From NCBI GenBank assembly GCA_025465465.1, contig JAODND010000007.1:55102-119101 (forward strand): 64,000 nt of DNA, written 5' to 3'. This DNA comes from Frankiales bacterium (GTDB taxonomy: Bacteria; Actinomycetota; Actinomycetes; Mycobacteriales; SCTD01). Of the stretch, positions 8,293 through 11,089 are shown one piece after another. Each line of letters begins with the position of its first letter. The first letter of the stretch is position 1. Both the position numbers and the translations under genes were made by a program. The notes under the pieces were generated by a model. That model worked only from the letters and a program-made list of their open reading frames with translations, did not search any database and was not told the DNA's origin.

Positions 8293-9692
8293 CGGAGGAT
8301 GCCCGTGGTCGTCCAGTCCGTGGCGGGGCGACTCGGGACGGCGGGCGTCTCCGTGCCACCCACACCCACGAGATCCGGGTCAGCGGCCAGGGCGATGGCT
8401 CCGAGCAGCGACGCGACGGCGCGCTCGACCAGGTGCAGCTCCTCGACGATGTCGTCGACCCCGCCGTCGGCCTCGGCCAGCCGCGCGAGCCGGTCGGCCG
8501 ACTCGCGCAGGACCAGCAGGGCGGGTGCTGTCGCGGCACCCAGGTCGGCGATGCCGCGCGCCGCGCTGCCCGCTGCGGAGACCTGCTGCGACGCGGTGCG
8601 GGCCTGCTCGCGCAGGTCGGCGACGGACAGCCAACCCTGGGCCTGGCTGACGAGCACCTCGGCGAGGCGGACGTCGGCCCGGCCGAAGGCCGGCGAGCCC
8701 ACCCCTCGGCGGATGACGATGACGGCCTGTGGTCCGGCGGGTCCCTCGAGCACGCCCGAGCACCACGGCCGGCCCTCCTCGAAGCCGACGCTGACGCCCT
8801 TCGAGCCGAGCGCGCGCATCACCCAGGGCTCGTCGAAGACCTCGGCCTCGACGCGCAGCCGCTGCGGCGTGCCGCCCTCGTCGCCCGCGTAGCGGACCGG
8901 TCCGTCCGCCGCGAGCAGCACCATCTCGACGTCGGCCCCGCCGAACAGCCGGGCGGCCGCCGTGACCACGACGCGCGCCGAGGAGTCGGAGCTGCGGCCG
9001 GTGGCCCGCTCCTGACCGGCGGCGAGCTCCGCAAACAACCGCGCCTCCTGCGTCTGCCGGGTCTGCTGGTCGTAGGAGGTCCAGAGCAGGGCAAGGGGTA
9101 CGACGAGGCCGGACAGTCCCAGTGGGGCCGTCATCCCGAGGTAGGCGGCGAGCAGGCCGATCGAGCTGTTGCCTGCGGTGTGCACGAGCGAGAGCGGCAG
9201 CGAGGTGACGAGCATCGGGACGAACGGCCGCCGGCTGGTGACCGAGACGGCGAGGCCGACGAGGGTGTTGTTGATGAGGAACCAGGCGGCGAGGCCGGCC
9301 ATGGCTCCGAAGATCCCGCCACCGCACGCTGCGGCGACGAGCGACCCGACCGCCGCGCCGCTGGTGAAGATCGAGAGGTTGAACAGCTTCTTCACGGTGG
9401 GGCGGCGCAACGCCGTCTGGGCGATGAGGACGCCGAGGAAGACGCCGAGGGTGGTCCAGCTGCCGGTGCCGATGACCCAGGCGCCGCCGAGCGCGCTCTC
9501 GGTGAGCGAGAAGCTCCAGCTCTGCCGGCCGAACTGCAGGTTGACGACGGCCATCTCGGACCCGGCCACGGCCAGCGCCAGCACGGGCACGGCCCACCAG
9601 GCCGGGCTCGCGAAGACGTCGAAGCAGGTGGCGAGCACGCCGACGACCGCCGTGGCAGCAGCCACGGCGGAGACGACGCGCGTCGGGCTCAC
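8289..9692 (-). CDS. polytopic membrane protein with cytoplasmic GAF-like domain
   Basis: About 7 TM segments in the first ~210 aa, then a soluble alpha/beta region and a helical tail. GTGA overlaps at both ends (8289-8292, 9689-9692). Confidence 0.65.
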   Translation of the reverse strand: MSPTRVVSAVAAATAVVGVLATCFDVFASPAWWAVPVLALAVAGSEMAVVNLQFGRQSWSFSLTESALGGAWVIGTGSWTTLGVFLGVLIAQTALRRPTVKKLFNLSIFTSGAAVGSLVAAACGGGIFGAMAGLAAWFLINNTLVGLAVSVTSRRPFVPMLVTSLPLSLVHTAGNSSIGLLAAYLGMTAPLGLSGLVVPLALLWTSYDQQTRQTQEARLFAELAAGQERATGRSSDSSARVVVTAAARLFGGADVEMVLLAADGPVRYAGDEGGTPQRLRVEAEVFDEPWVMRALGSKGVSVGFEEGRPWCSGVLEGPAGPQAVIVIRRGVGSPAFGRADVRLAEVLVSQAQGWLSVADLREQARTASQQVSAAGSAARGIADLGAATAPALLVLRESADRLARLAEADGGVDDIVEELHLVERAVASLLGAIALAADPDLVGVGGTETPAVPSRPATDWTTTGILR

Positions 9693-11089
9693 GAGTTGTT
9701 GCCTCCGTCAGAGCAGTCGCCGTTGCAGCCCCACGTGCCGACGGACCAGGAGGACGCGGACCACGAGGACGCAGACCACGAGGACGCAGACCAGGACGAC
9801 GCGGACCACGAGCTGGCGTCGAAGTCGGCCTCGCCGGAGGCGTCCCCACTGCCGTCGAGAGCCTTGCCGTCGGGACCGGCGCACGGGGTCGTCGTGGTCT
9901 CCACGAGGCCGGCGCCATCGCGCTTGCCGTGGAGGTCACCGGCGGCGCAGCGGATCGCTGACTTCACCTGGAGCGCCGTGGATCCCGGGTTGGCGGCAAG
10001 GTAGATCGCGGCGAGGCCGGAGGTGATGGCAGTCGCCTGGCTCGTACCCGAACCGCGGAACAGCCCGTTCGCGAGGTGCTTGGTGGACGAGGCCCGCTCG
10101 ATGACGGAGCCCTTGGGCAGCAGTCCCAGCACGTTGACACCGCTCGCGACGACGTCCGGCTTGGCATACCCGTCGACGACGTCGGACCCGCTGAAGGGAG
10201 CCACCCGCCCGTTGTCGAGGTTCGCTGCGCCGACGGTCAGGACGCGCGGGTCGAAGCCCGGGTCCCCGACCTTGCCCGGCTCGTTGCCCGAGGCGACCAC
10301 GACGGTCACTCCCGCAGCCCGCACCTTTTCGACGGCGTCGGTGAGCGGGTCGGCTCCGTACGCCTTCTGCGGTCGGTCATGTGAGAGCGCGAGGTTGGCG
10401 ACGTCGACCTGGCTGGCGTGTCCCCGGACCCAGTCGAGGCCTCCGAGGACGCGGGACAGCGAGGTGGTGCCGTCGCTCTGGGCGACGCGCACGTTGAGCA
10501 CCGTCGCACCGGGAGCAACCCCGAGCGCCTTGCCTCGGGTGCCGTTGACCGCGGCGCCCGCGATCACGGAGGCCATGAACGTGCCGTGGCCGTAGCCGTC
10601 TTCGTAGACCCCACCGGTCCGGAGGTCGCCGGGAGTCGACGCGTCGACCGCGTCGACCAGCCGGCCCGAGGCCCGGTTGAGGGCGGGGGTGTCGGTGACG
10701 CCGGTGTCGACCAGGGCGATGCGGATGTGCGCGCCGGCGCCGGCGAGACCCGCGCTGCCACCGAGGCCCTGCGACGCGAGCCAGGCGCCGGACGTGTCGT
10801 CGTCGTGACGGCTGTCCAGCTGCACCGGGTTGTCGAGGTCGAGGCCGCGGACGCCAGGGGTCCGGGCCAGCTGTGCGAGCGCGGCCTCCGGGCCACGGAC
10901 GACAGCCATGTCGAGGTGCGGGAGCCGGCCGATGACGGTCACACCGGCGACGGTGCGGGGTGCCCCGTCGAAGGAGACGACGGCCTGAAGCTCGGGCCCG
11001 GCTGGGAGCGCCAGCAGTGCGCCCGACCCCAGGACCACCCCGACGATCGCGCCCGCGGAGGCGCGGCGTACGGCAGCTGATCGGGTCAC
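9689..11089 (-). CDS. secreted S8 (subtilisin-like) serine peptidase with repeat tail
   Basis: Catalytic motifs VDTGV, HGTFMAS, GTSQATA. N-terminal signal/TM. C-terminal (ASSWS)x5 tail. Confidence 0.85.
   Translation of the reverse strand: MTRSAAVRRASAGAIVGVVLGSGALLALPAGPELQAVVSFDGAPRTVAGVTVIGRLPHLDMAVVRGPEAALAQLARTPGVRGLDLDNPVQLDSRHDDDTSGAWLASQGLGGSAGLAGAGAHIRIALVDTGVTDTPALNRASGRLVDAVDASTPGDLRTGGVYEDGYGHGTFMASVIAGAAVNGTRGKALGVAPGATVLNVRVAQSDGTTSLSRVLGGLDWVRGHASQVDVANLALSHDRPQKAYGADPLTDAVEKVRAAGVTVVVASGNEPGKVGDPGFDPRVLTVGAANLDNGRVAPFSGSDVVDGYAKPDVVASGVNVLGLLPKGSVIERASSTKHLANGLFRGSGTSQATAITSGLAAIYLAANPGSTALQVKSAIRCAAGDLHGKRDGAGLVETTTTPCAGPDGKALDGSGDASGEADFDASSWSASSWSASSWSASSWSASSWSVGTWGCNGDCSDGGNNS
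9744..9818 (-). repeat. 5 x 15-bp in-frame tandem repeat encoding ASSWS
   Basis: Plus-strand units are gaccaggaggacgcg / gaccacgaggacgca / gaccacgaggacgca / gaccaggacgacgcg / gaccacgagctggcg. Confidence 0.95.

What the first reader, a model, noticed from the sequence alone, without database searches (positions are those of the whole stretch)
9692..9830. Subtilase C-terminus carries five identical ASSWS pentapeptides whose DNA differs only synonymously
On the minus strand the S8 peptidase ORF ends ...DFD-(ASSWS)x5-VGTWGCNGDCSDGGNNS*. In coding orientation the five 15-bp units read gcc agc tcg tgg tcc / gcg tcg tcc tgg tct / gcg tcc tcg tgg tct / gcg tcc tcg tgg tcc / gcg tcc tcc tgg tcc. Every difference is a synonymous Ala or Ser codon change. 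The peptide is therefore what is conserved, not the DNA, which argues against a recent slippage artefact or a meaningless linker. No hydrophobic sorting segment or LPXTG-type signal follows; the tail has a CNGDC pair instead. A repeated short core attached to a protease resembles multi-core peptide precursors, but I know of no described family with this motif.
Basis: partly seen in the sequence, partly recalled or inferred. Interest (0 to 1): 0.6.

Follow-up and report, generated by a model that had tools for sequence, protein, structure and literature searches.

The report
Tryptophan-repeat tail on sensor-linked subtilase
A secreted protease of an uncultured soil actinobacterium ends in five identical Ala-Ser-Ser-Trp-Ser units kept by selection; this tryptophan-every-fifth-residue tail marks a large, undescribed group of proteases encoded directly before a membrane sensor gene, so it is probably a working part tied to that sensor.

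Summary
ORF 9689-11089 (-) is a pro-subtilase ending in DFD-(ASSWS)x5-VGTWG-CNGDCSDGGNNS*, and the five 15-nt units differ only synonymously.

It is not a local oddity. All 120 closest orthologues carry 6-16 units of A-[SNG]-[SAT]-W-[SAGT]. About 120 of 149 distant S8 representatives carry a strict period-5 Trp array built from other units.

Selection acts on the peptide. Against three relatives there are 0/25 residue changes while silent divergence is 0.20-0.63, with many TCN/AGC serine-codon switches. The 17 residues after the array, including CNGDC, drift almost freely.

No Pfam or NCBIfam model, PDB sequence or searched paper covers the tail. AlphaFold2 gives it no fold, with 5 or 16 units.

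The S8 gene is translationally coupled to a multi-TM+GAF protein. That protein is homologous (hhalign 99.6%) to sensors found directly downstream of Trp-tail S8 genes in other phyla. Here the sensor has no output domain and is followed by a two-TM histidine kinase, with a divergent NarL-type regulator.

Best reading (~0.45): a multivalent Trp tail holds the protease at the membrane surface and couples it to that sensor. Release of pentapeptide signals is neither shown nor excluded.

The parts
9689..11089 (-). Pro-subtilase gene (466 aa). Catalytic residues are Asp128, His168 and Ser350, with Asn269 as oxyanion residue.
   Evidence: Pfam Peptidase_S8 E 1.2e-37. AF2 model pTM 0.83. Foldseek best hits are pro-subtilases 3afg, 2e1p and 3whi. 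The catalytic residues are invariant in 65 orthologues.
11000..11089 (-). N-terminal export signal (about residues 1-30), with a conserved Arg-Arg followed by a hydrophobic stretch.
   Evidence: Hydropathy. Consensus MxRxAxxRR...GALL. AF2 pLDDT is below 50 here. Sec versus Tat was not resolved.
10739..10999 (-). N-terminal propeptide (residues ~31-117; the folded strand-helix part is about residues 33-85, the rest a low-confidence connector).
   Evidence: AF2 strands and helix at 33-85 with pLDDT about 90. The model aligns to ProN-Tk-SP and pro-subtilisin E over about 400 columns.
9818..9892 (-). Ordered linker (residues 400-424) with the conserved motif LC(A/S)GxDGxALDGSGDxxGExxFD just before the array.
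   Evidence: pLDDT is 86-91 in the blocks covering residues 401-420, then falls to 50 in the 421-430 block. G408, G413, D416, G419, E420 and F423 are at least 90% conserved. Distant members have a related GSLExSRG...DIFG segment.
9743..9817 (-). Five identical ASSWS units (residues 425-449) encoded by five different 15-nt units.
9728..9742 (-). Sixth, degenerate unit VGTWG (residues 450-454), in register with the array.
   Evidence: Orthologues end their arrays the same way (xxDWG, xxSWG).
9692..9727 (-). Short acidic or polar end CNGDCSDGGNNS (residues 455-466). It is weakly constrained.
   Evidence: pN/pS is 0.64-1.41 for residues 450-466. The Cys pair is present only in the window, P0001, P0004 and P0005.
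9689..9706 (-). Coupling signals for the next gene: GGAGG at 9702-9706 inside the last S8 codons, 9 nt before the GTG start, and a GTGA stop/start overlap at 9689-9692.
   Evidence: Read. The same 4-nt overlap is seen in six orthologous loci.
8289..9692 (-). 467-aa sensor-type protein: a hydrophobic multi-TM module (residues ~1-207) plus a cytoplasmic GAF-like domain, with no output domain.
   Evidence: Hydropathy. hhalign against the TM+GAF N-termini of sensors downstream of other Trp-tail S8 genes gives probability 99.6%, E 4e-24, 365 columns. MASE9 matches only below threshold.
7174..8292 (-). Histidine kinase with two TM segments, a very short outer loop, and HisKA_3 plus HATPase_c domains. 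Its start overlaps the sensor's stop.
11108..11983 (+). Divergent NarL/LuxR-type response regulator (REC + GerE). This is the maximal ORF; orthologues are 229-235 aa, so the true start probably lies downstream of 11108.

Best explanation
The ASSWS array is a selected, extracytoplasmic, multivalent tryptophan tail on a secreted, catalytically intact pro-subtilase. Only two features are constrained: Trp at every fifth residue and a small residue three positions before it. The other positions are small or polar filler. The tail has no autonomous fold.

I propose that its evenly spaced indole side chains act as repeated weak contacts. These contacts would hold the exported protease at the outer face of the cytoplasmic membrane. 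They would also couple it to the multi-TM+GAF sensor made from the same mRNA by translational coupling. That sensor has no output domain here. It would pass the signal to the adjacent two-TM, loop-less histidine kinase and the divergent NarL-type regulator.

Shown: the repeat and its purifying selection; its presence throughout a very large S8 clade; the absence of any matching model or predicted fold; the conserved gene order S8 then sensor; and the homology of the sensors across phyla.

Inferred: membrane-surface binding, physical or functional coupling to the sensor, and the direction of signal flow.
For: Selection on the peptide:
- Array residues are identical against L124, L125 and L126, while silent divergence is 0.20-0.63 with many TCN/AGC switches.
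- 9 of 9 in-array strain differences are at third codon positions, and copy number changes by whole units.

Generality:
- 120 of 120 orthologues carry 6-16 units.
- About 120 of 149 representatives at 34-65% identity carry strict period-5 arrays.
- 1207 of the roughly 1,480 W-W spacings counted after the catalytic Ser equal exactly 5, and 52 equal 10.

Placement: arrays lie at the extreme C-terminus, with a median of 4 residues after them.

No fold: pLDDT is 25-35 with 5 or 16 units.

Physical plausibility (scale values from memory: Wimley-White interfacial scale):
- Whole-residue free energy is negative in 112 of 120 arrays, with a median of -0.93 kcal/mol per unit. ASSWS x5 gives about -6.5 kcal/mol.
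- Units are neutral (73) or cationic (38), and rarely anionic (9).

Coupling to the sensor:
- There is a GTGA overlap and an internal Shine-Dalgarno sequence.
- The operon is conserved in 7 of 7 orthologous loci.
- In other phyla, 9 of 10 assessable Trp-tail S8 genes are followed by TM+GAF sensors with GGDEF-EAL, PAS-kinase or SpoIIE outputs.
- These sensors are homologous to the window's protein.

Precedents:
- In the Nanog tryptophan repeat, every fifth residue is Trp, and binding strength scales with the number of Trp residues (PMC5446312).
- MASE9-type modules are thought to bind their unknown ligand within the membrane (bioRxiv 10.1101/2021.11.05.467447).
Against: - There is no direct evidence that the tail survives maturation, binds lipid, or touches the sensor.
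- Gene adjacency would also arise if the sensor merely regulated protease expression.
- The loop predicted to face outward in the sensor (LQFGRQxWxFSLTE) is invariant in this clade, while unit positions 2, 3 and 5 vary. So there is no co-variation signal.
- The sensor's topology is inferred only from hydropathy and the positive-inside rule.
- The interfacial free-energy estimate is crude, and 8 of 120 arrays score positive.
- No transcript data were found.
Confidence: 0.45

Rival explanations
1. Multi-core signal precursor. The subtilase, or another protease, cuts the tail after each Trp and releases several identical pentapeptides (for example SASSW). These act as the ligand of the adjacent sensor.
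For: Units within a protein are identical at peptide level despite divergent DNA. The unit differs between lineages, as pheromone types do. Trp flanked by small residues is a plausible subtilisin P1 site (my own knowledge of subtilisin specificity). A sensor gene is always next door. Tandemly duplicated Phr propeptides are processed by extracellular proteases in Bacillota (PMC11343458).
Against: No product evidence exists. No modifying enzyme or separate precursor gene is present, and no mini-ORF carries the motif in the window. Mixed blocks such as ASSWG x6 followed by ASSWA x9 occur within one protein. Only Ala1 and Trp4 are constrained, and the sensor's putative outer loop is invariant while the unit varies. 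This argues against specific peptide-receptor matching. Copy number of 6-16 is free to vary.
Confidence: 0.18
2. Generic C-terminal extension unrelated to the sensor. The tail would aid export, folding or solubility, or would bind cell-wall or environmental polysaccharide through Trp stacking. On this view the S8-sensor adjacency reflects only co-regulation.
For: Many subtilases carry accessory C-terminal parts. The tail is predicted disordered. One distant member (L042) appears to carry a lectin-like insert in the tail region (read by eye). GH5 cellulase genes lie beside the regulator in the closest relatives.
Against: Strict period 5 is kept across phyla with quite different units. That is more constraint than a solubility tag or spacer needs. 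The tight, translationally coupled pairing with one sensor family persists across phyla, while the sensor's output domains change.
Confidence: 0.22
3. The array forms a regular beta-solenoid, either pentapeptide-repeat-like or a three-sided helix of 15 residues per turn with Trp ladders. AlphaFold2 would simply fail to see it.
For: The 5-residue register is perfectly regular, with a small residue fixed relative to Trp. AF2 is unreliable on perfect repeats whose alignments are ambiguous.
Against: No Pentapeptide family hit appears even for arrays of 26 units at E up to 1. The A(D/N)LXX consensus is not met, because the central Leu/Phe position would be Ser, Ala or Arg. pLDDT is 25-35 with 16 units. 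The window's 5-6 units would make barely one turn.
Confidence: 0.1
4. Neutral low-complexity expansion by replication slippage, with no function.
For: Copy number varies by whole units. Some arrays, such as L003, contain blocks of identical DNA units, which indicates recent duplications.
Against: There are zero residue replacements at substantial silent divergence. Repeated TCN/AGC serine switches occur. Trp is invariant in 1169 of 1169 units. The array is retained in every orthologue and in relatives down to 34% identity.
Confidence: 0.03

Closest known systems
Nanog tryptophan repeat (WR) of mammals (PMC5446312)
   Same: Trp occurs at every fifth residue, separated by small polar residues. 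There is no classical fold. Binding strength depends on the number of Trp residues.
   Different: There is no homology. Nanog is a nuclear eukaryotic transcription factor with about ten non-identical units. Here the array is an extracytoplasmic tail on a bacterial protease, and its partner is unknown.
Pentapeptide repeat proteins (Pfam PF00805 and PF13599; Rfr fold, e.g. MfpA, Qnr)
   Same: Tandem five-residue units with a small residue at a fixed position.
   Different: The A(D/N)LXX consensus with a central Leu/Phe is absent. No Pfam hit was found. No beta-helix is predicted.
Phr-type pheromone propeptides of Bacillota, including tandemly duplicated ones (PMC11343458)
   Same: Several pentapeptide-sized cores lie at the C-terminal end of an exported protein. 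Subtilisin-type exoproteases are the processing enzymes.
   Different: Phr precursors are small separate proteins sensed by cytoplasmic Rap/RRNPPA receptors after import. Here the cores are fused to the protease itself, the neighbour is a membrane sensor, and no released peptide has been shown.
Subtilases with accessory C-terminal parts: Tk-SP (PDB 3afg) and mycosins (TIGR03921)
   Same: Pro-subtilase architecture. The best structural and sequence neighbours fall here (mycosin model 97.6 bits).
   Different: Tk-SP has a folded beta-jelly-roll domain and mycosins have a C-terminal TM anchor. The window protein has neither, and it scores far below the mycosin cut-off of 278.75.
MASE9 membrane sensor domain (PF20972; bioRxiv 10.1101/2021.11.05.467447)
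   Same: The neighbouring gene encodes a multi-TM sensory module with short outer loops. In relatives it is joined to GAF and to GGDEF-EAL, kinase or phosphatase outputs. Its ligand is unknown and is thought to bind within the membrane.
   Different: Only sub-threshold matches were found (E 0.002-0.006, below the gathering score). In the window the module has no output domain and is followed by a separate kinase.
Intramembrane-sensing histidine kinases that rely on accessory proteins (LiaFSR and BceRS-AB type; own knowledge)
   Same: The kinase has two TM segments and almost no outer loop, and is encoded next to a membrane protein that could supply the input.
   Different: The accessory protein here is a TM+GAF module preceded by a secreted protease. 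No such three-part input has been described, to my knowledge.

Membership tests
Subtilase, peptidase family S8 (PF00082) | Match above the curated cut-off, with the Asp-His-Ser triad in subtilisin order | tested here: met
   130.2 bits against a cut-off of 21.8. D128, H168 and S350 are invariant in 65 orthologues.
Subtilase, peptidase family S8 (PF00082) | Subtilisin fold with an N-terminal propeptide | tested here: met
   AF2 pTM 0.83. Foldseek matches to pro-Tk-SP, pro-Tk-subtilisin and pro-subtilisin E have E about 1e-23 to 5e-25.
Mycosin (TIGR03921) | Score above the equivalog cut-off, plus a C-terminal TM anchor | tested here: not met
   97.6 bits against 278.75. There is no C-terminal hydrophobic segment.
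Pentapeptide repeat proteins (PF00805, PF13599, PF13576) | Profile match and A(D/N)LXX units with a central Leu/Phe | tested here: not met
   No hit at E<=0.01 for the window protein, nor at E<=1 for arrays of up to 26 units. The unit is A-S-S-W-S.
Pentapeptide repeat proteins (PF00805, PF13599, PF13576) | Right-handed quadrilateral beta-helix | tested here: not met
   AF2 gives pLDDT 25-35 and no strands for arrays of 5 and 16 units. A prediction cannot exclude the fold.
Sortase (LPXTG) or other C-terminal sorting signals | Motif followed by a hydrophobic segment and a basic tail | tested here: not met
   The end is CNGDCSDGGNNS, acidic or polar. Hydropathy finds only the N-terminal signal. 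No NCBIfam sorting-signal model hit was found.
Multi-core peptide precursors (RiPP or Phr type) | Several identical or near-identical cores in one exported polypeptide | tested here: met
   Five identical ASSWS units.
Multi-core peptide precursors (RiPP or Phr type) | Dedicated modifying enzyme or cognate cytoplasmic receptor encoded nearby, and a small dedicated precursor gene | tested here: not met
   The neighbours are a sensor, a kinase, a regulator, a GH5 cellulase and RNase D. No mini-ORF carries the motif.
Multi-core peptide precursors (RiPP or Phr type) | Released mature peptides | not testable with these tools
   This needs mass spectrometry of an expressing strain.
MASE9 (PF20972), for the neighbouring gene | Profile match above the gathering score | tested here: inconclusive
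   The window protein gives no hit. One orthologue gives E 0.0061 (16.9 bits against 24.3). Two of eight distant partners give E about 0.002.
Trp-pentad S8 plus TM-GAF sensor gene pair (undescribed class, defined here) | A strict period-5 Trp array at the S8 C-terminus, followed by a homologous TM+GAF gene | tested here: met
   Searches show the array. Searches show the gene order. One search shows the homology (99.6%, E 4e-24).

The most novel reading that the evidence does not exclude
The protease carries the sensor's ligand on its own tail. The Trp-pentad array, either intact at the membrane surface or cut into identical pentapeptides by the enzyme it is fused to, would be what the adjacent MASE9-like TM+GAF module detects. 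In this actinobacterium the module has lost its own output and instead feeds a loop-less histidine kinase and a NarL-type regulator. This would be a previously undescribed protease-sensor-kinase input device, and a first ligand class for this orphan sensor family.
Probability: 0.25. Interest if true: 0.8.

Novelty: new variant of a known kind. Interest (0 to 1): 0.6.

Why it matters
The window's tail is one member of what looks like a very large, uncatalogued class. These are secreted subtilases with Trp at every fifth residue of their C-terminus, encoded immediately upstream of one family of membrane sensors whose ligand is unknown.

If the tail is what links protease and sensor, the input of MASE9-like sensors becomes directly testable, using synthetic peptides, tail deletions and reporter fusions.

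This locus adds a useful variant. The sensor module is a separate protein that hands over to an ordinary two-component system, so input and output can be separated genetically.

There is also a practical point for annotation. The arrays are invisible to Pfam and NCBIfam, and they are a frequent site of frameshifted gene calls.

Tried and rejected
- Pentapeptide-repeat (Rfr) membership was rejected: no profile hit, the wrong consensus, and no predicted helix.
- A sortase or other C-terminal sorting signal was rejected.
- O-glycosylation of the Ser residues as the conserved purpose was rejected. Whole clades use ANAWA or AGAWG units, which have no Ser or Thr.
- CNGDC as a functional disulfide or metal motif was rejected as lineage-restricted and fast-evolving.
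- An assembly or slippage artefact was rejected.
- A constraint from an overlapping gene was considered. Only the last few codons overlap the next gene's ribosome-binding site and start codon, and the array itself does not.
- Exact-string and keyword literature searches for the repeat found nothing relevant.
- The PDB sequence search found only catalytic-domain matches.
- A reciprocal scan of metagenomes with the sensor alignment failed, because no conserved stretch was long enough.
I therefore could not census the genome or check model organisms such as Streptomyces venezuelae.
- No metatranscriptome run held the gene.
- I looked for co-variation between unit type and the sensor's outer loops. 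The loops are invariant in this clade, so there is no signal.
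Full report
**1. The observation**

The minus-strand ORF 9689-11089 encodes a 466-aa protein. It ends in ...GEADFD-(ASSWS)x5-VGTWG-CNGDCSDGGNNS*.

The five units (9743-9817) are written with five different 15-nt strings. All differences between them are silent, including one AGC versus TCN serine switch. Tandem Repeats Finder reports period 15, 4.7 copies and 87% matches.

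VGTWG is a sixth, degenerate unit in the same register.

Independent soil metagenome runs contain the stretch. A roughly 94%-identical strain in one of them carries exactly one extra 15-nt unit.

**2. What the protein is**

Pfam finds only Peptidase_S8, over residues 120-386. AlphaFold2 with a 65-sequence alignment gives a confident model for three parts: the propeptide, the catalytic domain, and an ordered linker up to about residue 420 (pLDDT 86-91 to there, falling to 50 in the 421-430 block). Overall pTM is 0.83.

Foldseek places the model with pro-Tk-SP, pro-Tk-subtilisin and pro-subtilisin E. The triad D128/H168/S350 and N269 are invariant in orthologues.

The only other hydrophobic segment is the N-terminal export signal. 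So this is a secreted, probably active pro-subtilase. It falls far below the mycosin cut-off and has no anchor.

**3. The tail in relatives**

All 120 closest homologues (56-94% identity; soil Frankiales/Mycobacteriales MAGs) carry the array, with 6-16 units. Composition by unit position is:

| Unit position | Residues observed |
|---|---|
| 1 | Ala 94% |
| 2 | Ser, Asn or Gly |
| 3 | Ser, Ala or Thr |
| 4 | Trp in 1169 of 1169 units |
| 5 | Ala, Gly or Ser |

An exhaustive phmmer search of 1.84 billion representatives went much further.
- About 120 of the best 149 representatives (34-65% identity) have strict period-5 Trp arrays with 4-32 Trp.
- Their units are quite different, for example GSTWS, ARSWS, ATRWG, GGSWT, NSVSW, GAKWY and DAAWN.
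- Downstream of the catalytic Ser, 1207 of the roughly 1,480 W-W spacings counted are exactly 5, and 52 are 10.
- Most array-less entries are fragments or frameshifted calls that read the array in another frame.

Across all lineages the constraints are the same: Trp, plus a small residue (Gly, Ala or Ser, 84%) three positions before it.

A DNA-pattern scan of GTDB genomes for (W-x-[AG]-x-x)x4-W was also run.
- It returned many unrelated 15-bp tandem repeats.
- Every long in-frame polar array was the C-terminus of an S8 ORF. This held for 12 loci from Acidimicrobiales, Chloroflexota, Dormiibacterota, Micromonosporaceae and others.
- A few small Gly/Asn/Trp-rich ORFs of a different kind also matched.

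**4. Selection**

I compared the gene with three relatives at 94%, 78% and 77% identity (L124, L125, L126).

| Region | L124 | L125 | L126 |
|---|---|---|---|
| Array: residue changes (of 25) | 0 | 0 | 0 |
| Array: silent divergence (pS) | 0.20 | 0.56 | 0.63 |
| Catalytic domain: silent divergence (pS) | 0.16 | 0.44 | 0.44 |
| Residues 450-466: pN/pS | 0.86 | 1.41 | 0.64 |

The non-synonymous steps that the counting method reports inside the array are TCN/AGC serine-family switches, not residue changes. Such switches are frequent in every array examined.

In the soil-run relative, 9 of 9 in-array differences fall on third codon positions.

Arrays also turn over by whole units. Copy number differs between near relatives, and one array (L003) is built from blocks of three DNA unit types.

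The picture is birth and death of units under strong purifying selection on the peptide. The Cys pair occurs only in the window and three relatives.

**5. Structure**

AlphaFold2 assigns pLDDT 25-35 to the array, both with 5 units and in a 16-unit orthologue.

No Pfam or NCBIfam model touches the tail, even for arrays of 26 units at E up to 1. PDB sequence matches stop at the catalytic domain.

The pentapeptide-repeat consensus is not met. I treat the tail as lacking an autonomous fold, with the caveat that prediction on perfect repeats is weak evidence.

**6. Context**

The S8 stop overlaps the GTG start of a 467-aa protein (GTGA at 9689-9692). A GGAGG lies 9 nt upstream of that start, inside the last S8 codons.

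That protein has a hydrophobic multi-TM region of about 207 residues and a cytoplasmic domain. Its stop in turn overlaps the start of a histidine kinase with two TM segments and almost no outer loop. A NarL-type regulator is divergent.

The same four genes recur in six orthologous loci. In addition, at least 30 contig lengths coincide between the S8 and sensor homologue lists.

Among the distant Trp-tail S8 genes from the pattern scan, 9 of 10 assessable ones are followed directly by a multi-TM + GAF protein. The output domains of these partners vary:
- GGDEF-EAL in five
- PAS-HisKA-HATPase in two
- SpoIIE-HATPase in one
- one partial copy

A profile-profile comparison of the window's family with the N-termini of those sensors gives 99.6% probability, E 4e-24, over 365 columns. 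The alignment spans both the membrane module and the GAF-like domain.

MASE9 (PF20972) matches only below threshold, so I call the module MASE9-like. The authors who defined MASE9 inferred ligand binding within the membrane, and no ligand is known.

**7. Mechanism**

I commit to the following reading at about 0.45 confidence. The tail is a multivalent Trp module that holds the exported protease at the membrane surface and couples it to the co-translated sensor. The sensor then signals through the loop-less kinase to the NarL-type regulator.

Supporting inferences:
- Wimley-White interfacial free energies (scale values from memory) are negative for 112 of 120 arrays. ASSWS x5 gives about -6.5 kcal/mol.
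- Units are neutral or cationic far more often than anionic.
- The Nanog tryptophan repeat is a precedent for a Trp-every-fifth-residue segment whose binding strength scales with Trp number.

The main rival with real novelty is the multi-core signal reading (0.18). Tandemly duplicated Phr propeptides are the closest precedent for it. Evidence against a specific peptide-receptor code:
- Only Ala1 and Trp4 are constrained.
- Mixed unit blocks occur within single proteins.
- The sensor's most conserved, probably outward-facing loop (LQFGRQxWxFSLTE) does not vary with unit type.

A generic extension unrelated to the sensor (0.22) and a hidden beta-solenoid (0.10) remain possible. Neutral slippage is effectively excluded.

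**8. Comparison with earlier notes of this scan**

After I had found the family-wide distribution and the conserved operon, I read the earlier notes. They describe the same class in other genomes and point to MASE9.

I tested that lead independently. The gene pairing is confirmed. Formal MASE9 membership stays inconclusive.

Two notes report mini-proteins ending in the same motif. None exists in this window.

**9. Verdict**

It is one instance of a widespread Trp-pentad tail on sensor-linked subtilases.

The local novelty is the split architecture: a sensor without an output domain, plus a separate kinase and regulator. The function remains inferred.

Noticed in passing
window 9689-9706 and 8289-8292: The last S8 codons (GAC GGA GGC ... 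TCG TGA) contain the GGAGG ribosome-binding site and the GTG start of the sensor gene. This constrains the very end of the protease: the final codon must end in G, and orthologues mostly end in Ser. The sensor and kinase genes overlap in the same GTGA fashion.
   Followed up: partly
window 12050-13180 (+); L124, L125, L126: A GH5 cellulase gene follows the response regulator on the same strand in the window and its closest relatives, and L126 has two. It is absent in more distant orthologous loci (L001, L003). This could be a regulon target or simply an insertion.
   Followed up: partly
P0142, P0155, P0189, P0210, P0241, P0260: Several database S8 entries end in strings such as VGVELVGVEL or LERFELERL. 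These are Trp arrays read in the wrong frame. The arrays seem to be a hotspot for frameshifted assemblies or gene calls.
   Followed up: no
L042 (Micromonosporaceae MAG), S8 ORF residues ~470-610: A segment with QxW-type motifs (QYWQMH, QKWQLN) that looks like a ricin-B lectin domain sits between the catalytic domain and a short terminal GRYWS array. This was read by eye only.
   Followed up: no
L004, L007, L014, L062, L073, L110: Distant Trp-tail subtilases share a conserved pre-array segment G(S/T)GSLE(A/G)SRG...(20-25 aa)...DIFG. The window's clade has what looks like a shortened version, LDGSGDxxGExxFD, which AF2 places as an ordered part of the enzyme. Its role is unknown.
   Followed up: no
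L076, L102, L075, L116: Small ORFs (126-250 aa) in Verrucomicrobiota and Alphaproteobacteria carry Gly/Asn/Arg-rich stretches with Trp at spacing 5 (for example GRNWSGRNW), followed by FIGxFGFP and GWGYPYY. This period-5 Trp feature is of a different kind and is not attached to S8.
   Followed up: no
window 8289-9692 (-), residues 46-65: The most conserved part of the sensor is E46...LQFGRQxWxFSLTE. It lies between two hydrophobic segments, on the side opposite the Arg/Lys-rich loops. It is invariant in 33 orthologues and recognisable (xLQFRKQxxxLSLTE / SLSEI) in sensors from other phyla.
   Followed up: partly
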